From Eledone cirrhosa (lineage: Eukaryota): 64,000 nucleotides of DNA. Below the pieces are notes generated by a model that worked only from the letters and a program-made list of their open reading frames with translations, was not told the origin of the DNA and ran no database searches. Location of the stretch: positions 404,364,001 through 404,428,000 of the forward strand of contig OZ024741.1 in assembly GCA_964016885.1 (NCBI GenBank), given 5' to 3'. The position numbers were made by a program, and so were the translations under genes. Of the stretch, positions 1,655-59,019 are shown piece after piece; position 1 is the stretch's first letter, and each line of letters begins with the position of its first letter.

Positions 1655-2100
1655 TATTGGTTTCTTATATAGGGACAATGCCAGCAATTTTTTTTTTTGG
1701 GGGGGGGGATTCGATTAAATCGACCCCAGTGCGTGACTGGTATTTTATTTTATCGACCACGTAAGGATGAAAGGCAAAGTTAACTTTGGTCGGATTTGAA
1801 ATCAGATCACAAAGGGCCGTAACTCTTTGCTGCAAAGCATGGCGTCCGATCCTCTTCCGATATTGCCAATCCACCACCCTTGTCGGATCTATTATTACTA
1901 CCATAGTACGGTAGATTGGCAGTATCGGTAGAGGGTTGGACGCCATGCTTTGCAGCAAAGAGTTACGGCCCTTTATGATCTGAGTTCTAATCCCGCCGAG
2001 GTTAACTTTGCCTTTCATCCTTACGGGGTCGATAAAATAAACTACCAGTAATACACTGGGGTAATTGCTGGCCTTGTGATAAAAGTAGAAACAATTATTA
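1655..2100. mobile_element. divergent pair of SINE family 1 copies (1655-1878 minus, 1910-2100 plus)
   Basis: Same box A, box B and core motifs as 439-628, on opposite strands. Confidence 0.85.
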
Positions 2101-6300: not shown

Positions 6301-6612
6301 ATATTTGACGACTGGTCATCGTGTTTCATAAGATACAATCCATCTCCTGTGTTGGGGTCACATAGGACTTTAGATTGGCAGAATTGGTAGAGCGTCGGAC
6401 AATATGCTTCCTGGCATAGAGTTACGGCTCTTGATGTTTTTATTTCAAATCTCGCCGAGATCAGCTTCAACTTTCATCCTTTCGCAGGTGATAAAATAAA
6501 GTACCAGTAACACACTGGAGTCAAAATACTCGACTCTCTCCACATCAAAATTGTTGGCCTGGTGCCTAAATCAGAAACCATTATGTTGTTGTTCCACTTG
6601 TGTTTTCTCATA

Positions 6613-7299
6613 TCTATATATATAAAGTTGTATTCCTGTCTGTCTGTTTGTTCACGAACTCCTCCTATGGTTTTGGAGATAGACCGCCATAACCATATAT
6701 ATTCTGAAACTACATTGCCCAGGGTACTTGGATAAGTATATTTCATTTTAATCAAAGGGTTCCCCGGGGGCAAAAACCCCCGCTGAAATTTGTTTACCTT
6801 CGATTTATGTGAAATTTAAACCATGGGTAAATGACAAGATATGATGCCTAATTACAAAAGTTTTGAATTGATATTTTGAAAAAATTTTGAAAAAGATAAG
6901 ATTTAATAAAGTAATTTTGATTTGATATGTTACAAAAAATAATTGTTTTAACTTTAGGCACAAGGCCAGCAAATACCCAGTGCATTACTGGTACTTTATT
7001 TTATCGACCCCGTAAGGATGAAAGGCAGAGTCAACCTCGGCGGGATTTGAACTCAGATCGTAAAGGGACGTAACTATTCTGGAAAGCATGGCGTCCGACC
7101 CTCTACCGATACTGCCAATCCACCGCCCTTATTATATTACAAAAAATAATGTTTTCCAATTTTTCATTCATTACATTTTACATTGAGTAATATTGAAATG
7201 CAGAGTTTTTCTCATTAAATTATTTCACTGATTTAAAATCAATCATTTTCTTACAAAAGAAATGTGTGAAACACAGCAAGGCGCGGGTAATTCGGCTAG
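6613..7299 (+). mobile_element. non-autonomous Helitron-like element with a nested SINE family 1 copy (6940-7128, minus)
   Basis: 5' A|TCTATATATATAAA with (GTCT)n and 3' GC-rich segment then CTAG|T. The SINE is flanked by a duplicated TTACAAAAAATAAT. Confidence 0.6.
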
Positions 7300-7871: not shown

Positions 7872-10800
7872 TAAATTTCTATTTATTTGCCACCAGGGCA
7901 TCAAAGATTGGGACAAATACAAAGTGGGGAGTTTACATACATTTAAAAAGACGTGTAAAAAAACGTAAAACAAATTAAATTTAACAATCAATGTACTCAA
8001 TAGGGAGGGGGCGTTGACATGGGTCGCACACACCCTCGAAAAAATGTGCAACCCTCCACTTCAGGAGCACAAAGAGCGGGTGCTTCCTTCCTCTTCTCAT
8101 TCTTCTCCTCTCTCACCTACAGGCTGATATAGAGTGATGGCCCATTCACTCGGGCCATTCTCGCTACTTTCACCCACCTTTCATAAAACTTGCTGGGGTA
8201 GAGCACCTCTCTCTCCATTCTGATCCATCTTCTAAAGTGGTACTTGAAAAAAAAGACCAGTTGTTGGCCGGAGAGAAAGGTGTCTGACCTCAGCCCTTTC
8301 AACCTTGTCCACCATACCACTTCTTTCGCCATAGCTATCACACAGAGGGAAACCGCCTCTCCTTCGTTTTTGAAAGGGGGAGGCGGTTTGATTGTGACAA
8401 TATTCTCGGTGGTCAACCGGATTGGTCCCACCCGCGACAGTAGTCGTTCCACATAGCCCCACAGGTCAGCAACGCCCGGGCAATGTACGAATGCGTGTGC
8501 GACGGTTTCCTCGTCACGCACGCATCTCGGACAGATCTTTTTCGAGGGGTCCCTACCCGGGCGCCCGTGTCTGTAGAACTTGTCCCGAACGGGTAGAGCT
8601 CCTCGGTAACATTGCCAAGTCAGGGACTTTTGGAAGTTGTCCATCGGTCCCGGGCCAAACGTCCTACCGAACAGACTGGCCAGCTCATCTTCCTCCATGC
8701 CCAGAGCCTCTCCGAGAGCGTCGTCGCACTTACTGCGCACCAACCCTCTATAGAATGTTGAGCTTGAGTCTCCACTGATTGCCGGATCCGCTTGCCAGAG
8801 GGCCGTGAGCGCCTGGGCACATTCAATGTGCCAGTCGCCCACTTTTCTCGGTCTTTGCTTGACCCAGGATTGCAGCTCAGTGAGTGAGACGAGTCTCGGA
8901 AAGGCTCGCCTCACAAACAGGGCCCACACCGGCTGACCGGTGAGGAAAACCTGGAGGTGCCGTAGCCTTAATGCGTGTCTACGCATCGTCAGCCACGGCA
9001 ACCCCAGCCCTCCGTTCGAAGGGTGTTGACAGCAGATGGATCTTCTCACCAAAGGAGCTCGCTTCTTCCAAAGAAATGGGAAGAGCGCGCGCTCCATTTT
9101 GGCGAGTGTTTTCTCTGGGCAAGGCACGACGGTCAAGCGGTAGTAGATGACGGACGCTATATAAGCGTTCGCCACCTCCGCTCGACCTTTCAGGGATAAT
9201 TTGCACTCGGCCGACTTCTGGGAGAGTGCAAACCCCTTGCCCGTTACCTCGTCCCAGTTTTTCTCCACCTGAAGGTACGGTCCGAACCAGACCCCGAGCA
9301 GCTTCACCGGGCCCTCCGTCCAGGGTCCGACGAATCCGTCGGAGGGTATCGTTTTGCCCCTCCACGTCCCGAGTTGCAAACCGACGGACTTGTCCCGGTT
9401 CAGCTTGGCTCCTGTGAACCTTTCATATTCCACCAGTAAGGTGCCGATCTGCCCGATTTCCAAGGTGCACGACACCATTACTGTCACGTCATCGGCGTAG
9501 GCCGACACCGCTTTCCGCAATCCCGGTTCCAAGGGGGATACCCTGCAACAGCTCCAGCTTCCGCAGTAGTGGCTCGAGAGCCAGCACATACAGGAGGGAG
9601 GAGAGATCGCGTGATTTGGAACGGCTCCGAGAGGTAGCCGTTCACCTTGACCCTCGAGCAGGTGTTGCTGCTGTGCATTGCAGCAATCCAGCACCTGAAA
9701 ACGGGTCCGAAGTCTGCCGCCGCGAGCACCGCATCCAGGTACCGATGGTCAACCCTATCGAACGCCTTAGATTGTTCCAAGTTGATCAGGGCCCCACCAA
9801 AGCCGGTTTCGTTCCCTACCCTCTCTACGATGTATCGCATGAGGTGGAGGTTGTCGTGTATGGACCTGGACGGGATTGCGCATGTCTGCGCTTCTCCCAC
9901 CAGGTTCCCGACGACAAGCGCCAACCTCTTCGCTAACACCTTGGCCACAATCTTTAACTCTCTGTTTAGCAGAGTTATGGGTCTGAAGTTATCTATATCA
10001 TCCCCTTTGTTCTCGTCCTTCCTCACCAGCGTGACTACGCCCTTGGTCACAGAACTGGGAATTCTCCCGTTCTGTTTCCAGTTGCAGTAGACCGCCTCGA
10101 GGAGACCGGACAACAAGCCCGGAATCGCTACATAAAGTTCGTATGGTAGACCATCGAGACCCGGAGATTTGCGTTTGCCGCATTGGCTCAGCGCTTCCCC
10201 TATTTCAGCGGCTGAAATCGGCCTCTCGCAGGACTTCGCCTCCCCGTCCGAGAGCCGCGCCAGACCGTCGAGGTATGGACCGAAATCCATGGCCCCACCC
10301 GGCTCTCCGCCCCTCCCGAACAGTCGTGCAAAGCGCCGTTGAAAGGCCGCACTCATCCGCTCAGGTTCAAGGATCACGCGTCCATCCTGGTCCTTCAAAG
10401 ACCGAATCGTGGACTTGTTTCCACTTTTTGCCTCTGTCACTCGGGCCCAGCTAACAGCTTTGGCTCCATCGTTACCCAGAGCACATATTTTACTCCTGAC
10501 AACGCAGCTCTCGTGCTTCGCATCAAAGAACTGGTCTAGGGCCGTTCTTGACGCCAGCACGCCGGCCACGTTGCCACTCCTAATCGCCTCTTCTACTCTA
10601 TTTGTTAATTCCCTTTCAGTTCTATTCCTATCTGATGCTAATTCCCGACTAAAACCTATCGATTCTATTCTAATTTCTCTCTTGAGAGAGCTCCACCACC
10701 TGCTGTTGACAATTGCTCCCGTCAAACGCTGCTTAACTAGTGTGCTAATCCGCTTACTGTAAGCTTTGTTGTCGGTAAAGACAAGTTTAGCTTCCAGTAA

Positions 10801-12034
10801 CCGGGTCCCTGTCACCAACTTGTGATCCGAATAGTCAACCATGAACATTCGTGGACAGCTTAATATGTCCTTATCCTTATTTCTAACTAGGAATCTATCT
10901 AGGTACGACCTAGATGTTCCGCTACGATTAGTCCACGTCCACAGTGGCACAGTCGGAAAATCTAGTCGATATCTATCGGCCAGATCAAATCGGCCGATTA
11001 ATCGTTTGAGGCTGTTACACCCCCCCCCTCTATCGGGACAGGCCTCTACATAGTCCCAACGTGCATCCAGGATACTATTCCTGTCCCCCACTAAAAGCAA
11101 GGAGCGAGACGTTCCCAGGAAAGTCTCCAGGCGTCGGAAGAAGTCCGGTCGCGGTGTCCCAGATGGGGCATACGCTGCTACCAGCCTGAAAGCTCCACCT
11201 TCACCACTGCCGACGTCTAAAACCACCAGTCGACCCTCCGGGTCCAGGTGTACCTTCTGTGTGGCAAGACCCAGATATTTTCGCAGCAGAACGACAACCC
11301 CACCCCCACCCCTCGGCTGACAGAGAGATGCGTAGATCTCAAAGTCGTCGAAGATGGGGGCCAGTTGGCGCTCGCTGCTGATCCTGGACTGGCAAATAAC
11401 CATTACATCCACTCTGTGCGACCTGAGGTCATTTAAGAGTTTGCCCTGTTTCCAGGACATCCCCAGGCCGCGTGCATTCACACATCCAACTCTTATATTG
11501 ACCATGTTGGTGCTGAAGAGTTAAAAAGGAAGAGGAAAGGAAATTTTTTTACAGTCTGTGCGAATGTTGTTTTGGTGTTGTTGTCTTTTTTGTTGCTGTC
11601 AATGTTGGTAATATTGTTCATGTTTTCCTTGATGTTGCTATTGTTGTAGTTGTTGGTTGTGGTGTTATTGTCATTGTTCTTGTTGTTGGTGCTGGTATTA
11701 TTTACCGGGTTTGGTTTCGTGGTTTCAATATTTTCAACGTTTTTTGATAATGCGAGAGGGGAAGGCTGCAAGCTTTGTACTCCTACCTTCCCTCCACCAC
11801 TTTTCTTAGTGGGCGTAGCACTCACGAGAGTGTGCGATGTGGAAATGGCATACATTGCTGATACCAAGTCTACACAGTTTTGAGATGATAATGAAAATTT
11901 CGCCCCAGAAAGGGGCGAAAATTAGTTGACTCAACGGCAAGGGGTTAAACTAAACAATGCTATTAAATTGAGCAATGAACTCACAGTTTTTTTACAATAA
12001 TCCGTAAAAGTCCGGAGCGAAGTAATTCACGTCT
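7872..12034 (-). mobile_element. L1/Tx1-clade LINE retrotransposon, both ends apparently present
   Basis: Minus strand begins AGACGTG (12034). It has a short ORF1 remnant, ORF2 with endonuclease, RT and Cys motif, and a 3' UTR with AATAAA (7882-7887). Confidence 0.9.
8117..11505 (-). pseudogene. disrupted LINE ORF2 (APE endonuclease, reverse transcriptase, C-terminal Cys-His motif)
   Basis: Endonuclease motifs CVNARGL, LVGDRN, SYLDRF, YSDH; RT motifs KSPGLDGL, NFRPITLLN, KAFDRVDH, AYADD; CPRC-x7-HAFVHC. The QG motif (xRQGCP) is deleted and frameshifts near 9520-9610 split the ORF. Confidence 0.92.
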
Positions 12035-33399: not shown

Positions 33400-33455
<56 letters not shown>

Positions 33456-33966: not shown

Positions 33967-33970
<4 letters not shown>

Positions 33971-36900
33971 GCATTACAAATGAAATCGCTAAAATATACA
34001 AAAACACGGGAAAACCTAGCACACATAAACAAACAGGCGAAAACATTAATGACGGAACTGAACATTGATGACAGGACTTATCCCTACAACCCTAGGACAC
34101 AGACTATCTATTAAAGACCATAAACCGGACTTTCAGTCAAAACTACCGGTCAGACTCATAGCCCCCTCTAAATTGGACCTAGGTAGAATTAGCAAATCTA
34201 TCATCGACCTGGTTATACCTGAACTTAGAAATAGAACTAAACTCAGCCTCTGGTCTTGTACAAAGGAGGTAATCGTCTGGTTTTGTGGCATTGAAACTAA
34301 GTCGAATGTTCGATTAGTCCAATTGGACATTACGAACTACTACTCCACTATATCCCCAATCATCCTTAACAAGGCACTGATCTCAGCTATGAACAGATCA
34401 AGCCTCACTAGAAAGGAAGTGGACATCATACTAGTAGCTAGGAAAACTTTACTAGAATTTGACGGTAGATTGTGGGAGCGACAGAATAGACCAGATAGCT
34501 TCGACATTACTATGGGATCGACTGACTCCGCGCAGGTTACAGATATAGTAGGCATATACCTCCTAAATATATTAACAGATGAGATTCCCTCCTTGGGCGG
34601 TGGCTTATACCGTGACGATGGCCTACTAATGACCCGTGGACTCAATAATAGCCAATTAGATAGACTACACAAACGACTTAGGTACATCTTTAAGACCCCA
34701 GGATTAGCGGTAGAAATCGAACCTAACAGTAAGACAGTAAACTTTTTAGATGTCACCCTAGAATTAGACTCAGGTCTATACCGTCCATACCACAAACCTA
34801 ATGAAAAATCATAAATACGTCAACAGATACTCCAACCACACTAGAAGCATAATTAACTCAATAGTTTAAAGCGTTTCCTGTCGGCTAACAGAACTATTTT
34901 CAACCAGCACGCGGAATACTACAACTCCGCACTTGAAAAGGCTGGTAGCATTGAGAAGATCTCTTACAACGACCCAAATAGAACCGTAACGCCGCCAAAC
35001 ATAACCGGACCCTTAGAAACGAACATAGAAGTGGTCACCACACCTAGAACAAATAATAGCATAAGACGCTCTTTAGCCAGCAGGGCAGGCAGCGTTGCAC
35101 ACAACTGTTAAGGAGATAAAGCTATACACTCCAACCCAATAAGGACTCCGACTATCGCACACGTTTACGTAGTAATAGAGACAAGAGACATAACGCCAAT
35201 AGATTACTAGGAACCCTTATGACACATACACCTGACTAAAACGCACCAACACCCACCACCTAACCACAAAACCTCACTAAACACCGTAGAACCCGAAGTA
35301 GACCTGTCACATGGTACAACGCCCCGTATTCTATACACGTTGCCACCAATATACCGGGAACCTTCTTCAGGGCTCTTGAACAATCTTTTCCACACACACA
35401 TAAATACCACAAGCTCTTCAATAGACACACTGTAAAATTCTCTTTGTCCACAGCACCAAATCTAGGCCACACAATAGCACACACTAATAGGACAAAAATA
35501 TGCAAACACATGGTTGCCCCACAACAAACCACTACCACAACCCAGAACGAAACCACATACACAACACAACAAAACAACCCACATGCCAGCTCCACACAGC
35601 ATAACACCAACCGGCAACGTGCCACCACACCGGTAATACCCAATTACAACTGCAAAATACAGGCTGAATGCCCACTAAACGGGGAGTGCCTCGTTAAAAC
35701 CATTGTTTACCGGTGTGATGTCACAACTGGCAACAAAGAGTACTCATATATAAGTGCGCCCCCACTACGTTTAAGGAGCGCTGGTATAACCATAGATGCT
35801 CCTTTAAGCATAGGCTGAAACGATCCCAAACTAGACTGGCAGATTTGATCTGGGACCTCAAGGACAGGAACATCGAATCCCAGATCACTTGGTCAGTCAA
35901 AAGACGCGTGACGCAACTCCCCAGTGACAGAAACCACTTCAGGTTATGCCTGGCCGAGGCGGCAGATATTATTAAATTAAAATCTGCCATAAACTATAGG
36001 TCGGACATAATTATCAACTGCAGACACACCAGGTTGAACACATTTTCTGCACAAACATTCGGCGGAGAGCCGCACACTAAACATGACCCAGCATAATAAT
36101 AACCACCCTTACCCCGTCCACTATCCCTCATCTCAGTGAATTTATTTTATTGCATGTAACCCTTTGTAAGCCCATATTTTGTATACATCACCTCCACCAA
36201 TAGTCACATCGCCATACACCCCTCATCTTTGTAACACTGTGTTCTATCTGTCCCCTCTGTCAGGTTTTACCTTGTAATCCATAGTAACATGTGATCCTGC
36301 AAATATAATGTCGATCATACCTCCCCATCGCCACCACCACCACCACCACCGCCTACATCGCTATATGTCTACCATCCCACACCCGCAACCTTATTCCCCC
36401 ATGTTCCCTCTATCTGCCTACAACCCCTCGTAAAATTCGATCCTGGAAATATACTGTCGCACGCACCATCACCGCCACCACTAGATACATCTCCATACTT
36501 CATCAATCATTAACATCATTAACATCACCAACACATATCATCCCTCACTCCCAGAACGACTGTGTTATATCTGCCCTCTCCGTCTGCTTTACCCTGTAGC
36601 CCACCGTAACATCTGATCATGTAATCATATTGTTGAACATATCAACCCATCACCACCACCACCATGACCACACACATCGCTATACGTCCACAAACATTTT
36701 CCCTCGTGTTCTCTATGTCACTTTTTAACCTGTAACCCATGGTATTATTCGATCCTGTATATTTTTTGTCGCCCACAACTCCACTCCGCCACCACAAGGC
36801 ACAACACCACACCTCAACAATCATTAACATCATTAACATTGCCAACACATACCTTCCCTCCCGTAGCAACGCAAGTGTGTGTGTCTGTGTGTAAGTATAT

Positions 36901-37615
36901 TTATATGTACAACGCTATCTCCATTAGCTCTCCCCCTCCCTCAATCTATGTACTACTCCACCCCCACTGACACTCCCCCCTCTCTCTATATATACACACG
37001 CGCGCATGCATGTATGTGTATATATGTATATAAGTGTATGTATGTGTGGTTGTATGTGTGTGTATGTATGCGTGTGTATATATGTGTGTAAGTGTATATA
37101 TGTCAGTATATATACGCATGTGTATGTATACAACGTTTTTGTCAGACTAAGATTGTCTAGATATGTGTCTCCCCATTGATCTGGCACCACCAATACATCC
37201 ACCACACCACCATAAATGCCATTACGATAAACAACACCACACCCACACCACATCAAACACAATAATCAGCCACAAATATACGCCAATCTGTCTACCGACA
37301 ATCCACCACCCCCACACCACAGCCCATCCCAGTCAGCGACCGTCACCAACATCTTATCATCACATCCACCCCACATACCCATGATCTACTCTACCAATCA
37401 AAACAATTCATATTGACCAACATATGAACTTCTGACTTTATCATATAGCATGTATTCATTTTCTACTAGCATTTTAAAGGGTCCGTCGAGCTGCCGATTA
37501 TAGAGTCGGGTAAGATCGATACAGATCGAACATTGAGCTGATCAGTGGCGAAACGCGCGTCACCTACCAATAACTGTAATGAAGGAGTAACCAATCGTCC
37601 TTGTTATCCTTTCAA

Positions 37616-37618
<3 letters not shown>
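33967..37618 (+). mobile_element. 5'-truncated, decayed Penelope-like retroelement (Naiad-like), inserted in (TA)n
   Basis: RT: IKDHKPDF...PVRLIAP, LDITNYY, ITMGS, GGLYRDDGL, VNFLDVTL, YHKPN. Cys cluster NCKIQAECPLNGEC, then IVYRC...YI GIY-YIG with IWDLK. The 3' end has GAAAC-GCGC-GTC (37550-37561). Multiple stops and frameshifts. Confidence 0.9.
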
Positions 37619-39917: not shown

Positions 39918-40251
39918 GTTGGGTATAATGGTAGCTATGGTGCTTCCATAGGCGGTATGCCAAAATTAGCACTCAATATTCATCAGAGTAGAGTGTAGAT
40001 AGTATAAAGAAAACGAAAAATCAGTGATTCATCTGGATTCAATTTATTGCGTGTTACAATTGTTTCGCCGGCAGGTAGCTCGAGACATGGTCCCTGTATG
40101 GATCTGGGTGATTCTACAGCTGCAGATTCCTTCAGACACGGGTAGTTCGTTCGGAGCAAATTTTGATATGTCTCGAGCTACCTGCCGGCGAAACAATTGT
40201 AACACACAATAAATTGAGTCCAGATGCATCACTTATTTTTAATTTTCTTTA

Positions 40252-43725: not shown

Positions 43726-43733
<8 letters not shown>

Positions 43734-44170
43734 AGTAAGTCAAACATGTTAAATTTGGCTTCATTTATTATAAATTCTCTGGTATATATATTTCAGTGAC
43801 AGCTATTTTTTTGGCTGTGACCTCATCAGATAGTATGAATTAGTATGATTAGTATGATTCCAGTTCCTCGGAGGACTAACAGCACACCCTGGAGCTGGAC
43901 ATATCGATGAATTGACAGAGGGAAACACATTTCAACACCATGTTTACCTGTTTTTTCTACATTAATTCGTACTGCCCGATGAGGTCACAGCCAATAATAG
44001 CTGTCACTGAAGTATATATAGCAGAGAATTTATAATAAACGAAGTCAAATTTAACATGTTTGACTTACTTATTTTACATTTCTCCGGAGTAAACAAACCA
44101 ACCTGCGTACTTCGACAAGTGCTCAAACCTGCATAATGAGGTGTCGGTAAACAACCAACACATACTCAAA

Positions 44171-44173
<3 letters not shown>
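43726..44173. mobile_element. fold-back hammerhead element homologous to the terminal repeat of the 49.5-53.3 kb Penelope-like element
   Basis: Arms 43726-43829 and 43976-44076. ACTGC-CCGATGA-GGTCACAGCC...GAAGT-ATAT-ATA-GCAG; the tail CTCCGGA...CTTCG...GTGCTC...ACCAACAC is shared with the reverse complement of 49538-49626. Confidence 0.8.
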
Positions 44174-45519: not shown

Positions 45520-46360
45520 ACACTAGAACTCATCAAAGGTGCATGTATAGTACATAGAATAATGTACAAATGTCAGGGAAGTGAATAGTGTATGGAGGGG
45601 GAATATTAGGTGTAGTGTTGGCGAATCTCAGGAAGCATGGAGGTTTTAAAGGATGCAGTGTCTCGACAGCTAACAAATGAAGCAGGTAGTTTGTTCCATG
45701 GAGGTTTTAAAGGATGCAGTGTCTCGACAGCTAACAAATGAAGCAGGTAGTTTGTTCCATGGAGGTTTTAAAGGATGCAGTGTCTCGACAGCTAACAAAT
45801 GAAGCAGGTAGTTTGTTCCATGGAGGTTTTAAAGGATGCAGTGTCTCGACAGCTAACAAATGAAGCAGGTAGTTTGTTCCATGGAGGTTTTAAAGGATGC
45901 AGTGTCTCGACAGCTAACAAATGAAGCAGGTAGTTTGTTCCATGGAGGTTTTAAAGGATGCAGTGTCTCGACAGCTAACAAATGAAGCAGGTAGTTTGTT
46001 CCATGGAGGTTTTAAAGGATGCAGTGTCTCGACAGCTAACAAATGAAGCAGGTAGTTTGTTCCATGGAGGTTTTAAAGGATGCAGTGTCTCGACAGCTAA
46101 CAAATGAAGCAGGTAGTTTGTTCCATGGAGGTTTTAAAGGATGCAGTGTCTCGACAGCTAACAAATGAAGCAGGTAGTTTGTTCCATGGAGGTTTTAAAG
46201 GATGCAGTGTCTCAGCAGCTAACAAATGAAGTTTGTCCCATGCTTCAGCAACTCTGAGCGTGAAAAAAATGTTTCAGAAAGTCATGGGAGCTGTGCTGTT
46301 TTCTGACTTTGTTGGCATCCCCAGCTGTGTTAGACACATGGAAATCAAAAAGGTGCTCAG
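45520..46360 (-). mobile_element. CR1-like LINE 3' fragment containing a 61-bp x10 tandem amplification (45636-46241)
   Basis: Minus-strand pieces KVRKQHSSHDF.KHFF..RVAEAW.KLPASFVSCRDTASFK fit the CR1 ORF2 end; nine identical 61-bp units plus one degenerate unit. Confidence 0.75.
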
Positions 46361-49450: not shown

Positions 49451-49537
<87 letters not shown>

Positions 49538-49539
<2 letters not shown>

Positions 49540-52526
49540 CAAGAAAGTAAGTGTTGGTAAAATCCAGTACTTCAGTATGCGGATAGGGAGCACCCAACGA
49601 AGATATAAGTTCCGGAGTTATAATAATGACGAAACATAAGTCAATTGCATGAACTCATAATCCTTTATTTACTGCTATATATATTTCGATGATTGGCATC
49701 ATTTCCAACATCAAATTTTCCGACCAACCATACCGGGGTCGAGAGTACCATAGACGACTGGAAAATGGAATTACCGACCTTAAGGAATCTACAGGAATAC
49801 TCGTCCATGCCGACAAAACCAACAACCTTTACAGCATGGACGTTCAACTTTACCATGAGCTAACTAATCCTCAGGGAATTGAGAAAAAGCTACAAAAAAA
49901 CGCCCGAGGCTACCCTGGAGGATATCAACATCAAGGCTTATGAGATCGTATCTGGTCTTGGTATAGATGATAGGACGGCCCTATACCAACCAAAGAAGCC
50001 AAGGATTACCATTAAGGACCACAAACCAAACTTCGAGTTTAACCTGCCGGTCAGACTGATAGCCCCCTCCCGGTCAGACATGGCGGTTATTAGCAAAAGC
50101 ATTTTAGATAGGATCCTGCCCACACTTAAGAGTAAAATAAGGTTACAACTCTGGTCCTGCACCAGCCAGGTGCTGGACTGGTTTACATTTTTACCTGAAA
50201 AACATAGGACTAGCTTCATACAACTAGACATCAACAATTACTACTCCTCTATCTCTCCCATAGTCCTGAACAGGGCACTCATATTCGCGATGAATAGGAC
50301 AGACCTAACACGCGACGAGATTCGAATCATACACGCCGCCAGAAAGACCTTGATCCGATTCGGTGGGGACATATGGACCCGGAGTGACTGGCCAAAAAAT
50401 GTTGACATTACAATGGGCTCCAGTGATTCCGCGCAGCTAACGGACTTGGTTGGGATATACATACTCTACGAGATCAGGAGAGAAATACCCAACCTGGGTG
50501 GCGGGCTGTAACGAGACGAGGCACTCTTCACCGTAGTGGACCACAGGACCACAATGGTCTAAAATATGAAGAGGAGAATTAGGCACGTCTTTAGCAAGGT
50601 AGGACTTAAGGTAGAGATGGAACCCAATAGAAAAGTAGTGAATTTCCTGGACACCACCCTCAACCTCAACACCAAGCTACACCACCCATATCATAAACCC
50701 AATGAGAAGCTGGTGTATATCAACGCTGGGTCTAATCACCCTAGATCTATAGTTAAGGCCGTAGTTAAGAGTGTCTCTGACAGGATCTCTAACTTGTCGG
50801 CCAATAAAGAGATCTTCAATAGTAACGCTGATTACTATAACTCAGCGCTAGCTAAGGCGTCCCACAGCGATAGGATCAGCTATAAACCCTAAGGGACATG
50901 ATCGAGATGACCCAAGGGTACCCCGGACCAATACCCTCAGAGGCATCAGCAGCCCACCTAATACGTCGGTGACCAGTAGTAATACTCCCAGACCTCTATC
51001 CGTCACCACCCCCGGTAGAAGGTCCCGCATACCCCACCGGCCTAATACCTACAACGCTGAAGACCACTGTGTTGCAGAGCATTGGCACTCCTGCACCGGC
51101 CCCACCACCCACCGAACCCTAATTGAGCAGGGAGGCCGCATCTCGGAGGTTTATAGCCCCACGGTGGGCCCATATAACCCTCATGATAGTGACCGCTCCG
51201 CACACCCGAGTGACACCAACCGAGCTCAACCTGAGCTGTGCACAACCACGCGATGGCCCACGACGGACACCCAACAACCCCGCAAGAATAGGACCAGAAA
51301 GGTCACATGGTATAACCCTCTGTACTCGGTGGGTCTACGTACCAGCCTGGCTAGAACATTCTTTAGAGTACTGGATAAATGTTTCCCTAGGGCCCACAAT
51401 TACCATAAAATATTCAGCAGGCACACGGTGAAACTTTCCTACTCAACCACACGCTCCGTAGCTCAGCACATAGCTGGCATAAATAGGAATAGGCTCACTG
51501 CCTCTAATACCACCGTAAACCCCGGAGCCACCCAACAGAACCAGCACACGGGACGCAACGGAACCCGGACAGGCCCAACTAGCACACCGGAAACCAACGA
51601 CCCTGTGTTGATTGCACAGGCTACCCAGCCAACCCCGAGGGATGGTAACCACGCGGTACATGTGGCGGGGCTTAAGAAGTCATGTAATTGCAGAGACCCA
51701 TTACTATGCCCCCTTAGTAATGAATGCATGACGAAAAACGTGATCTACAGGTGCAAGGTCACAACCCCTAACTCGGAGCACCACTACATAGGATCCACAG
51801 CGACGAGCTTCAAAGATCGGTGGTATAACCATCGCCATTCCTTTAACAGAATAGATAAGAGGAAATGTACGGCCCTTTCTGAATTGATCTGGAAGCTCAA
51901 ACTTGAAAAGACCCCGCACTCTCTGGTCTGGTCCGTGGTTAGAAAGGTTCCCCCAGACAGAGGCGGGTCTGGTATTTGCAACCTCTGTCTTAGTGAGACA
52001 CTCGAGATTCTTCATGGCGGAACCAAGCTATTAAACAGAAGGGCCGACTTTTTCGATGCCTGCAGACACCTAAGCACGGGAACTTTCCTCAAGCTGTATG
52101 GATAAACCCTGGTTACGGCCTCCCACAACGCGCCCCCCCCCCCCATGTAGGTCCCCTACACCCCGTACAAATGACCAATGGACAACAACAACCACCCATA
52201 GTTTGTGGTCCATATGGTGGATGGTCCACCGGATCCTCTACTGGTTAGGAGTCATCAAAACCACGTTTTATTGAACCTGTTTTATATATATATATATATA
52301 TCATGTATATATATATGTATGTATATATATTTTATATATATATATATTTTATATATATGTATGTATATGTATGTATATATTTTATATATATATGTATATG
52401 TATGTGTATTTTATATATACATATGTATGTATGTTTTATGTGTGTATATATTTTATGTATGTGTGTATTTTATGTATATATATATTTTTATATTTTTATA
52501 TGTATATATTTTATATATATGTATGT

Positions 52527-52562
<36 letters not shown>

Positions 52563-53303
52563 CTTGTGCGTACATACATGCATGCATATATATGTATACA
52601 CACCTGTATGGATTTGTGTGTGTAGATGTGTGAGTGTCTTAGGGGTAGGTGTGAGTGTATGTACAAGTCAACCAGCATAAACCTTTTATTTCTACATTTT
52701 CTAAACTATCTAAGTATTGGACTCTAACCAATATTTTAAGTATTACCACCCCACATTTTGTATGTGTGGATGTGTGTGTGTGTCTGTGGAGGTAGGTGTG
52801 AGTGTACGTGCAAGCCAACCTACATAAGTCTTTTTATTTGTAAATTTTCTACTCTAACCATAAATTTCAGTAGCACCACTCCACATAAATTCCTCAATTT
52901 AAGAATGACCTGTAGTATCTATTTCATACTATAAACCTCAATTGAATATATATCTGGCCAGGAATGCTTTTTGTGAAAATCAGTCATATGAAACTATTGT
53001 CATCTTGCCTGACGGTTTGAACTTTACAACACCACCTGCCTCTTTGAGATCAAATACCAACCCTACTACCATCTACAAACTGACCAATGAGAATCAAGAC
53101 TATTCCTGCTGACAACATTAAATTATTCCTAACAAGCTCATATGTCCAAAGGCTCTGATACCATCAACACTATAAACACAGAGCTGGCATATCTAAGAAC
53201 TGACTAACTGCCTGATGAGGTCATAGCCATTCAATGGCTATCATCGAAATATATATAGCAGTAAATAAAGGATTATGCGTTCATGCAATTGACTTATGTT
53301 TCG

Positions 53304-53307
<4 letters not shown>
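49538..53307 (+). mobile_element. 5'-truncated Penelope-like retroelement (Naiad-like) with an inverted terminal-repeat fragment, in (TA)n
   Basis: RT: ADKTNN, IKDHKPNF, LDINNYY, TMGS, GGGL*RDE. Then WYNPLY...HKIFSRHTVKLSYS, CNCRDPLLCPLSNEC, VIYRC...HYIGST...FKDRWYNH, CNLCLSE. 49627-49692 is the reverse complement of 53241-53306. Confidence 0.92.
53207..53262 (+). ncRNA. type I hammerhead ribozyme in the Penelope 3' terminal repeat
   Basis: ACTGC-CTGATGA-GGTC-ATAGCCA-TTCAA-TGGCTAT-CATC-GAAAT-ATAT-ATA-GCAGT. Confidence 0.88.
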
Positions 53308-53343
<36 letters not shown>

Positions 53344-55915: not shown

Positions 55916-55956
<41 letters not shown>

Positions 55957-56071
55957 GTGTGTTTACATATACAGACTTTGTACTGTATGTAGTTACACAT
56001 TGTTTATATTATTTTCTTGTTCGAAATATTTAATGACAGCCAGATTCGTCTTCCGTTCTAAAATAAGAGAC

Positions 56072-58819
56072 TTATGTGACAACGGTGGTGTTAGGGTTAT
56101 GTGACAATGGTGGTGTTAGGGTTGTGTGACAATGATGGTGTTAGGGTTATGTGACAATGGTGGCGTTAGGGTTGTGTGACAATGGTGGTGTTAGGGTTGT
56201 GTGACAATGATGGTGTTAGGGTTGTGTGACAAGGGTGGTGTTAGGGTTGTGTGACAATGGTGGTGTTAGGGTTGTGTGACAATGGTGGTGTTAGGGTTGT
56301 GTGACAATGATGGTGTTAGGGTTGTGTGACAATGATGGTGTTAGGGTTGTGTGACAAGGGTGGTGTTAGGGTTGTGTGACAATGATGGTGTTAGGGTTGT
56401 GTGACAATGGTGGTGTTAGGGTTGTGTGACAATGGTGGTGTTAGGGTTGTGTGACAATGGTGGTGTTAGGGTTGTGTGACAATGATGGTGTTAGGGTTGT
56501 GTGACAATGATGGTGTTAGGGTTATGTGACAATGGTGGTGTTAGGGTTGTGTGACAATGGTGGTGTTAGGGTTGTGTGACAATGATGGTGTTAGGGTTGT
56601 GTGACAATGATGGTGTTAGGGTTGTGTGACAATGATGGTGTTAGGGTTGTGTGACAATGATGGTGTTAGGGTTGTGTGACAATGATGGTGTTAGGGTTGT
56701 GTGACAATGGTGGTGTTAGGGTTGTGTGACAATGATGGTGTTAGGGTTATGTGACAATGATGGTGTTAGGGTTGTGTGACAATGGTGGTGTTAGGGTTGT
56801 GTGACAATGATGGTGTTAGGGTTGTGTGACAATGGTGGTGTTAGGGTTGTGTGACAATGGTGGTGTTAGGGTTGTGTGACAATGATGGTGTTAGGGTTAT
56901 GTGACAATGGTGGTGTTAGGGTTGTGTGACAATGATGGTGTTAGGGTTATGTGACAATGGTGGTGTTAGGGTTGTGTGACAATGGTGGTGTTAGGGTTGT
57001 GTGACAATGATGGTGTTAGGGTTATGTGACAATGGTGGTGTTAGGGTTGTGTGACAATGATGGTGTTAGGGTTATGTGACAATGATGGTGTTAGGGTTGT
57101 GTGACAATGATGGTGTTAGGGTTGTGTGACAATGGTGGTGTTAGGGTTGTGTGACAATGGTGGTGTTAGGGTTGTGTGACAATGGTGGTGTTAGGGTTGT
57201 ATGACAATGGTGGTGTTAGGGTTGTGTGACAATGGTGGTGTTAGGGTTGTGTGACAATGATGGTGTTAGGGTTGTGTGACAATGATGGTGTTAGGGTTGT
57301 GTGACAATGATGGTGTTAGGGTTGTGTGACAATGATGGTGTTAGGGTTGTGTGACAATGATGGTGTTAGGGTTGTGTGACAATGGTGGTGTTAGGGTTGT
57401 GTGACAATGATGGTGTTAGGGTTATGTGACAATGATGGTGTTAGGGTTGTGTGACAATGGTGGTGTTAGGGTTGTGTGACAATGATGGTGTTAGGGTTGT
57501 GTGACAATGGTGGTGTTAGGGTTGTGTGACAATGGTGGTGTTAGGGTTGTGTGACAATGATGGTGTTAGGGTTATGTGACACTGGTGGTGTTAGGGTTGT
57601 GTGACAATGATGGTGTTAGGGTTATGTGACAATGGTGGTGTTAGGGTTGTGTGACAATGGTGGTGTTAGGGTTGTGTGACAATGATGGTGTTAGGGTTAT
57701 GTGACAATGGTGGTGTTAGGGTTGTGTGACAATGATGGTGTTAGGGTTATGTGACAATGATGGTGTTAGGGTTGTGTGACAATGATGGTGTTAGGGTTAT
57801 GTGACAATGATGGTGTTAGGGTTGTGTGACAATGATGGTGTTAGGGTTGTGTGACAATGGTGGTGTTAGGGTTGTGTGACAATGGTGGTGTTAGGGTTGT
57901 GTGACAAGGGTGGTGTTAGGGTTGTGTGACAATGGTGGTGTTAGGGTTGTGTGACAATGGTGGTGTTAGGGTTGTGTGACAATGGTGGTGTTAGGGTTGT
58001 GTGACAATGATAGTGTTAGGGTTGTGTGACAATGGTGGTGTTAGGGTTGTGTGACAATGGTGGTGTTAGGGTTGTGTGACAATGGTGGTGTTAGGGTTGT
58101 GTGACAATGGTGGTGTTAGGGTTGTGTGACAATGGTGGTGTTAGGGTTGTGTGACAATGGTGGTGTTAGGGTTGTGTGACAATGGTGGTGTTAGGGTTGT
58201 GTGACAATGGTGGTGTTAGGGTTGTGTGACAATGGTGGTGTTAGGGTTGTGTGACAATGGTGGTGTTAGGGTTGTGTGACAATGGTGGTGTTAGGGTTGT
58301 GTGACAATGGTGGTGTTAGGGTTGTGTGACAATGATAGTGTTAGGGTTGTGTGACAATGGTGGTGTTAGGGTTGTGTGACAATGGTCGTGTTAGGGTTAT
58401 GTGACAATGGTGGTGTTAGGGTTATGTGACAATGGTGGTGTTAGGGTTATGTGACAATGATGGTGTTAGGGTTATGTGACAATGGTGGTGTTAGGCTTAT
58501 GTGACAATGGTGGTTTTAGGGTTATGTGACAATGGTGGTGTTAGGGTTATGTGACAACGGTGGTGTTAGGGTTATGTGACAATGGTGGTGTTAGGGTTAT
58601 GTGACAATGATGGTGTTAGGGTTATGTGACAATGGTGGTGTTAGGGTTATGTGACAATGGTGGTGTTAGGGTTGTGTGACAATGGTGGTGTTAGGGTTAT
58701 GTGACAATGATGGTGTTAGGGTTGTGTGACAATGGTGGTGTTAGGGTTATGTGACAATGATGGTGTTAGGGTTGTGTGACAATGGTGGTGTTAGGGTTAT
58801 GTGACAATGGTGGTGTTAG
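56072..58819 (+). repeat. 25-bp minisatellite, about 110 copies, each containing TTAGGG
   Basis: Unit GTTAGGGTTRTGTGACAATGRTGGT. Confidence 0.97.
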
Positions 58820-59019
58820 TGTTTGTGTCGCCTCATCTACGCCATCAACTTTATCTAAAGTCACACGTCAACCTCCAGTCACCAAACTAATTGTTAAATG
58901 TATCCCAAGTTTTTCTATCTAGTTTCAGGTATAGTGTATCCAGAACTACAAAATTAAATATGTTCGCTTTTCAAACGGCGCTAATGTGTTTTTCGAGGTG
59001 TTTTGCTGATATTTCGAGC

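What the first reader, a model, noticed from the sequence alone, without database searches (positions are those of the whole stretch)
49538..53307. Coding Penelope-like element shows the same end structure as the small hairpins and is homologous to one of them
Seen: the last 66 nt (53241-53306) are repeated in inverted form at the 5' truncation point (49627-49692). They are preceded by an ~89-nt tail (49538-49626) that is absent from the 3' end. The hammerhead and tail are recognisably homologous to the 43726-44173 hairpin: ACTGC-CyGATGA-GGTCAyAGCC...ATATATAGCAG, and tail CTCCGGA, CTTCG, GTGCTC, GCATA.TGA, ACCAACAC. Established: inverted terminal-repeat fragments at 5' ends are typical of Penelope elements. 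Inference: this links the RT/GIY-YIG partner to the hairpins, which would be the same structure with the ORF truncated away.
Basis: partly seen in the sequence, partly recalled or inferred. Interest (0 to 1): 0.8.

Follow-up and report, generated by a model that had tools for sequence, protein, structure and literature searches.

The report
Penelope retrotransposon with twin start hairpins
This is a broken copy of a known kind of jumping gene (a Hydra-type Penelope-like element), and comparing its relatives shows two small conserved stem-loop sequences just behind its two insertion ends, which likely tell the copying enzyme where to start.

Summary
49627-49692 is an inverted copy of the last 66 nt (65/66), preceded by an 88-nt tail. 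The element is a dead, 5'-truncated Penelope-like element with the diagnostic motifs of the Hydra clade. The tail is the start of the full-length 5' UTR. The 43.7-kb hairpin belongs to a sister family, which also has ORF-bearing copies. All six window hairpin families tested have ORF-bearing Hydra relatives. Inverted ends and tails are known features.

Not found in print in my searches: a bulged stem-loop (RCUC-Y..R-NN-GAGY-NCU) with compensatory base changes sits in two tandem copies in the 5' UTR, one typically 5-9 nt behind each insertion end. 296 of 314 copies ending in (TA)n stop just before one. 71 of 72 head-to-head hairpins pair one end of each type. The motif recurs in 27 of 43 metagenomic relatives. 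The tail is therefore likely the spacing between two RNA start signals used by a protein dimer. One family lacks an intact second hairpin and another an intact first, and nothing was tested biochemically.

The parts
49460..49537 (.). (TA)n target, left flank; any target-site duplication cannot be read
49538..49625 (-). Tail (88 nt): start of the full-length 5' UTR. Its outer end (49538) is insertion end 'site 2'
   Evidence: follows the upstream pLTR and ends about 57 nt before ATG in full copies L090-L093
49589..49618 (-). Stem-loop motif 1 inside the tail (this copy has GGGT for the family's GAGT, a G-U pair)
49627..49693 (-). Inverted 3'-end fragment (short arm, tail-bearing)
   Evidence: 65/66 identity to 53241-53306
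49689..49693 (.). ATGAT microhomology at the head-to-head junction
49689..52105 (+). 5'-truncated, interrupted RT + C-terminal GIY-YIG ORF; 92-94% DNA identity to four other copies
49812..49820 (+). DKT motif (Hydra form of DKG)
   Evidence: definition in PMC8557442 section 11
50509..50520 (+). RT catalytic YRDD position, reading *RDE in this copy
   Evidence: YRDD in copies L091, L124, L127
51683..51709 (+). CxCX5C linker (CNCRDPLLC)
51740..52070 (+). GIY-YIG endonuclease without CCHH; CxxC and CxH near the C terminus
52106..53307 (+). 3' UTR / pLTR with simple repeats and a ~144-nt internal duplication; 53307 is insertion end 'site 1'
53139..53144 (+). Hot 5' start point of short family-A copies (possible transcript 5' end; inferred)
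53207..53262 (+). Type I hammerhead pattern with a palindromic AT helix III; cleavage untested
   Evidence: no hammerhead family hit in Rfam
53308..53337 (.). (TA)n target, right flank
43726..43845 (-). Sister family B0 hairpin: tail-less (site 1) arm
43855..44173 (+). Sister family B0 hairpin: tail-bearing (site 2) arm with hammerhead (about 43971-44025) and tail (about 44080-44173)

Best explanation
This is an inactive, 5'-truncated Hydra-clade Penelope-like element, and it and the small hairpins are head-to-head double insertions into (TA)n whose two ends are likely set by two tandem RNA stem-loops in the 5' UTR. Shown: the identity, the ORF links, two discrete ends per family, a covarying stem-loop typically 5-9 nt behind each end, and hairpins that pair one end of each type. 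Inferred: the RT-GIY-YIG protein binds each stem-loop as a dimer and nicks both strands of (TA)n. Each 3'-OH then primes reverse transcription at a UA just 5' of one stem-loop, and the two 5'-truncated cDNAs are joined head to head by microhomology. The tail would be the distance between the two start sites. Short ORF-less copies would come from the 5' pLTR of ordinary transcripts. ORF-containing arms such as the 3.6-kb one here would need a tandem or circular template.
For: Hydra motifs; model of sister ORF L124 is an RT fold with TERT as top hit. Tail equals 5' UTR start. Two ends per family. 296 of 314 (TA)n-ending copies end 0-14 nt before motif 1 or 2; 158 of 169 in the six families not searched by their ends first. 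Prospective pattern tests 'tail end + gap + RCTC': 388, 12, 274 and 109 hits, reversed controls 0. The unsearched second half followed in 17 of 20, 9 of 12, 10 of 12 and 12 of 12 fetched loci, and a Hydra ORF hit in 15, 1, 12 and 12. Covariation in 17 motif copies: pair 1 is 7 A-U and 10 G-C; pair 5 is 12 C-G, 4 U-A and 1 mismatch; only a 2-nt bulge gives pairing, 16 of 17 vs at most 4 of 17. 71 of 72 hairpins are site 1 + site 2, 45 of 46 outside A and B. F4 arms share variant alleles in 15/15, 14/15 and 13/14 pairs. Metagenomic relatives: 27 of 43 have one or more motifs, 17 of 43 have two; controls 1 of 43, 3 of 860, 8 of 283. Two internal RT start sites, two-strand cleavage and a predicted dimer are reported for the Poseidon element PAc (PMC11167929).
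Against: Family F5 has a fixed site 2 but no intact motif 2; only AGCACT remains. Family D has no strict motif 1. 16 of 43 metagenomic loci had no strict motif, some with short flanks. In the end mapping, 124 alignments without a nearby (TA)4 run and 110 read-through alignments were set aside, and A and B copies were partly found by their ends. The covariation alignment was anchored by me on the motif and the families are related, so it reflects few independent events. The MFE fold of the A region forms motif 2 but not motif 1 (z = -0.75). The window's two arms differ at a variant site (2 of 6 A pairs discordant), so one RNA per insertion is not universal. No biochemical test was run.
Confidence: 0.68

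Rival explanations
1. The motif is read as DNA, or by the endonuclease. One cDNA is made, and the second end is cut by the endonuclease when the intermediate is resolved, a fixed distance from the motif.
For: PMC8557442 ascribes the tail to EN-mediated resolution. PMC11167929 reports that the D. virilis EN needs the tail for recognition. G-U pairs, which would favour RNA, are few.
Against: Both ends occur in solo copies: site 1 in most of L002-L019, site 2 in 6 of 30 tail loci. Motif 2 lies outside the inserted DNA of short copies. PAc uses two RT start sites in vitro.
Confidence: 0.14
2. Hairpins form by fold-back self-priming of a single cDNA; the motif only marks first-strand starts and the pairing of end types is secondary.
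For: Self-priming was proposed for Penelope inversions (PMC3846280). Arms are usually allele-concordant, and junctions show short overlaps.
Against: In the window the tail is on the 66-nt arm while the 3.6-kb arm lacks it, so neither arm can be a copy of the other. The same holds for L031, L040, L045, L050 and L057.
Confidence: 0.1
3. The hairpins are independent non-autonomous families (MITE- or retrozyme-like) that are copied as units and borrow the Hydra enzyme.
For: Short copies far outnumber long ones and share hot 5' ends. No B0-type full-length 5' end was found (0 exact matches; 9 one-mismatch hits, all B1-type). Short tandem units with pLTR, tail and UTR exist (L205/L206, L340/L341).
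Against: Each hairpin has its own junction and arm lengths, so the hairpin is not the replicated unit. All six tested families have ORF-bearing relatives.
Confidence: 0.08

Closest known systems
Hydra clade of EN+ Penelope-like elements (Craig et al. 2021, PMC8557442; includes Hydra-1_Obim from Octopus bimaculoides)
   Same: DKT, RW[K/R], CxCX5C linker, no CCHH, CxxC and CxH, 3' hammerhead, (TA)n targeting, inverted 5' copies
   Different: Unit about 4.0 kb and ORF about 850-890 aa with two disordered inserts, against generally <3 kb. Tail 67-99 nt. The twin stem-loop is not mentioned in the passages read, although by eye it is present in their Hydra-1_Ajap (two copies), Hydra-2_Ajap and Hydra-2_Amil consensi (File S7).
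PAc (Poseidon, Anolis carolinensis) internal RT initiation (Frangieh et al. 2024, PMC11167929)
   Same: Two start sites that define the tail, AT-rich targets, both strands cut and extended, predicted dimer, required RNA extending 3' of the start sites
   Different: PAc starts within the ORF in one AC-rich stem-loop and the paper describes tails as 30-40 bp. Here the starts are in the 5' UTR and each has its own copy of a conserved stem-loop.
Penelope tail and inverted pLTR in Adineta vaga (PMC3846280); opposite-strand minimal hammerhead pairs in Schistosoma (PMC4209133)
   Same: Optional tail on one inverted pLTR; short head-to-head hammerhead pairs read as truncated PLEs
   Different: No cis signal for the two ends in the passages read
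Non-LTR retrozymes (PMC7229834; bioRxiv 10.64898/2026.07.22.740005)
   Same: Short, non-coding, hammerhead-bearing pLTR derivatives
   Different: Retrozymes are head-to-tail tandem repeats; these hairpins are head-to-head single insertions

Membership tests
Penelope-like elements (EN+) | Single ORF with TERT-like RT and C-terminal GIY-YIG endonuclease | tested here: met
   Open 892-aa sister ORF and 847-aa family-A frame; top fold hit TERT, E 4.6e-9; VIY..YIG motif. Pfam and PDB sequence searches gave nothing significant.
Penelope-like elements (EN+) | Partial tandem pLTRs, inverted 5' copy, optional tail | tested here: met
Hydra clade | DKG modified to DKT | tested here: met
   49812-49820
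Hydra clade | N-terminal RWK motif | tested here: met
   Truncated away in the window; RWR in family-A full copies, RWK in L124
Hydra clade | CxCX5C linker | tested here: met
   CNCRDPLLC, conserved in alignment A1
Hydra clade | CCHH absent; CxxC and CxH around the conserved E and N | tested here: met
   CNLCLSE and N..CRH; one Cys between GIY and YIG (read by eye)
Hydra clade | Hammerhead near the 3' end | tested here: met
   Pattern at 53207-53262; Rfam gave no hammerhead hit; cleavage untested
Hydra clade | Insertion into (TA)n | tested here: met
Hydra clade | Generally short (<3 kb) | tested here: not met
   Family A unit about 4.0 kb; a tendency in the paper, not a strict criterion
Hydra clade | Phylogenetic placement against Poseidon, Neptune, Nematis, Naiad | tested here: inconclusive
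   Quick tree of 18 Hydra-like proteins only, with no labelled reference clades; A+B2 are sisters at SH-aLRT 98
Naiad | N-terminal endonuclease, no canonical hammerhead | tested here: not met
   Endonuclease is C-terminal and a hammerhead pattern is present
Neptune / Nematis / Poseidon | CCHH in the endonuclease; DKG | tested here: not met
Non-LTR retrozymes | Head-to-tail tandem hammerhead repeats | tested here: not met
   The 43.7-kb hairpin and relatives are head-to-head
Non-LTR retrozymes | Expressed circular RNA | not testable with these tools
   needs RNA data

The most novel reading that the evidence does not exclude
Hydra-clade Penelope-like elements carry a clade-wide, undescribed RNA element in twin copies. 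Each copy docks one subunit of an RT-endonuclease dimer and fixes internal initiation a few nucleotides upstream. This would be a programmed two-primer mechanism that explains both the tail and the head-to-head inversions, and it defines a portable start signal for a telomerase-related RT.
Probability: 0.5. Interest if true: 0.8.

Novelty: new variant of a known kind. Interest (0 to 1): 0.6.

Why it matters
How Penelope-like elements make tails and tandem/inverted insertions is named as an open problem in PMC8557442, and PMC11167929 located start sites without defining the RNA signal that the protein binds. A short, covarying, twice-repeated motif at a fixed distance from each end gives exact mutations to test. 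Young open-ORF families in this genome (713-aa family G; tandem F4 arrays) offer substrates. It also explains a large class of apparently non-coding hairpin repeats and gives a signature for finding Hydra element boundaries. The element in the window is itself an ordinary dead copy.

Tried and rejected
Pfam and PDB sequence search: no significant hit for these proteins. Rfam: no hammerhead or other relevant family on the window, the 3' end, the family-A 5' UTR or six metagenomic loci; one search gave repeat-driven miRNA matches below gathering score and one partial tRNA match. MAFFT misaligned 4 of 17 motif copies, so pairs were counted on a motif-anchored register. The first 30 copies of the 43.7-kb family showed no attached ORF; walking upstream found it. 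A B0-type full-length 5' end was not found. Sequencing runs: no RNA holder listed. Earlier scan notes: nothing. The careful tree did not finish. Window families near 39996, 13111/49310, 44692/59145, 37753, 14170, 31794 and 32214 were not tested for ORF links. The ORF-bearing relative of the 33455 hairpin is only about 80% identical to it.

Full report
Observation. The inverted fragment is real: 49627-49692 matches 53241-53306 at 65 of 66 positions, and an 88-nt tail precedes it. Both flanks are (TA)n. The composite end aligns to the 43.7-kb hairpin far above shuffles (136 vs 58+-7, 0 of 1000). Hammerhead and tail are each significant on their own; the stretch between them is not. The ORF is truncated and interrupted, and its catalytic motif reads *RDE.

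Identity. The genome is a 3.0-Gb assembly. The only named protein hits with a species are cephalopod (Argonauta hians, Octopus bimaculoides). The protein has each sequence feature given for the Hydra clade in PMC8557442 section 11: DKT, RW[K/R], CxCX5C, no CCHH, CxxC and CxH. An AlphaFold model of the open sister ORF L124 (pLDDT 76) has telomerase RT as its top Foldseek hit. A tree against labelled clades could not be built, so placement rests on motifs.

What the tail is. Four of 30 tail-anchored loci read through into an ORF. In them the order is pLTR, tail, about 57 nt, ATG, ORF, pLTR. The tail is thus the first part of the 5' UTR, as described for other Penelope-like elements (PMC3846280, PMC8557442, PMC11167929), but longer than the published 30-40 bp. 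Of the other 26 loci, 20 have an inverted partner arm (17 of them without ORF) and 6 are solo. The element's own family therefore makes ORF-less hairpins.

The other hairpins. The 43.7-kb hairpin belongs to family B0 (2988 first-look candidates, 40 scored). None of the first 30 copies carried an attached ORF, but 11 of 30 longer copies did. Related pLTR+tail sequences sit in front of ORFs about 69% identical to family A at the N terminus. Families F1-like, F2, F3, F4 and F5 (window hairpins at 33455, 44214, 43552/60852, 24297/28838, 32064/54064) all lead to Hydra ORFs; in F3 only 1 of 12 loci gave a tblastn hit. Seven other window families were not tested.

The twin motif. Each well-sampled family has two discrete ends. 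Reading past each end in ORF-bearing copies shows the same element: RCTC, a Y-R pair, a variable upper stem-loop, a 2-nt 3' bulge, GAGY, then NCT (0.001 per shuffled region). I then predicted a second copy behind the tail end of four families whose 5' UTR I had not seen, searching only for tail end plus RCTC. The searches gave 388, 12, 274 and 109 hits with controls at 0. The second half of the motif followed in 17 of 20, 9 of 12, 10 of 12 and 12 of 12 fetched loci. A fifth test, F5, found the ORF (9 of 12) but no intact second motif, and family D lacks a strict first motif. Across eight families, 296 of 314 copies ending in (TA)n stop 0-14 nt before a motif, typically 5-9 nt; 124 alignments without a TA run and 110 read-throughs were set aside. 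Two stem pairs covary, and only a 2-nt bulge fits; the rows are related, so the shuffle values are not probabilities.

Outside this genome. Of 77 metagenomic loci I examined 43 that include the ORF start. 27 had one or more motifs within 300 nt upstream and 17 had two; controls were 1 of 43 reverse strands, 3 of 860 shuffles and 8 of 283 ORF windows. In a follow-up on 25 loci, nine had a second pLTR copy that left the alignment within about 4 nt of a motif, one left elsewhere in the hammerhead, two read through, and the rest were uninformative. By eye the motif is also in published sea cucumber and coral Hydra consensi (File S7 of PMC8557442).

Mechanism. 71 of 72 head-to-head pairs combine one site-1 arm with one site-2 arm, 45 of 46 in families not ascertained by their tail. 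With the in vitro behaviour of PAc (two start sites, both strands cut and extended, predicted dimer, required RNA 3' of the starts), the simplest reading is a dimer with one subunit on each stem-loop, each primed by one nicked target strand. These steps are inferred. Fold-back cannot make the window element, because the tail is on the short arm. An endonuclease-resolution model remains possible. ORF-containing arms need motif 1 behind the 3' pLTR, hence tandem or circular RNA; full tandem arrays with a period of about 3.54 kb exist for F4.

Literature seen. PMC11167929: main text parts 1-2 of 4; supplement PDFs gave almost no text, so Fig. S2C (an RNA fold) could bear on novelty. PMC8557442: passages, section 11, supplement parts 1, 2, 52, 53 and a term search. 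PMC3846280, PMC7229834, PMC13282606: passages. PMC4209133: part 1 of 4 and passages. bioRxiv 10.64898/2026.07.22.740005: part 1 of 5 and passages; its supplements were not read. Eight searches and four Rfam scans showed no description of the motif. Subscription papers and Repbase reports were not searchable. L1 twin priming is a recalled analogy.

Verdict. The feature flagged is real and of a known kind: a Hydra-clade element with inverted end and tail. The twin stem-loop and the one-of-each rule appear undescribed and make the origin of the tail directly testable. Interest 0.6.

Noticed in passing
window 33970-37618 (+): Second, decayed Hydra-type element (56-59% protein identity to families A and B2) with a long 3' UTR and a CUGAUCA-type hammerhead core near 37540
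   Followed up: partly
window 8117-11520 (-): LINE with endonuclease- and RT-like frames, split over two reading frames
   Followed up: no
L205/L206, L340/L341 (G000 C1:27009634, C1:67880940): Short head-to-tail units of about 220-260 nt made of pLTR end, tail, 5' UTR and ORF start; retrozyme-like derivatives of Hydra families that could template short copies
   Followed up: partly
G000 C1:91476611-91487267 and C1:437200343-437210965: Full tandem arrays of family F4, period about 3.54 kb, at least four units each
   Followed up: partly
L173-L202: Young family G with many 713-codon open frames; candidate for biochemistry
   Followed up: partly
window 53139-53144; 43850-43860: Short copies of families A and B0 both start preferentially at a CATATG; either a transcript start or microhomology with (TA)n
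   Followed up: partly
window 1723-2062 and 6373-7120: Head-to-head pairs of a repeat that looks like a tRNA-derived SINE (recalled resemblance), a hairpin type without a hammerhead
   Followed up: no
window 55947-58900 and 45630-46230: 25-nt tandem array and a roughly 61-nt tandem array
   Followed up: no
P0043: An O. bimaculoides protein model begins with a Hydra RT fragment fused to a PH-domain protein; probably an annotation artefact
   Followed up: no
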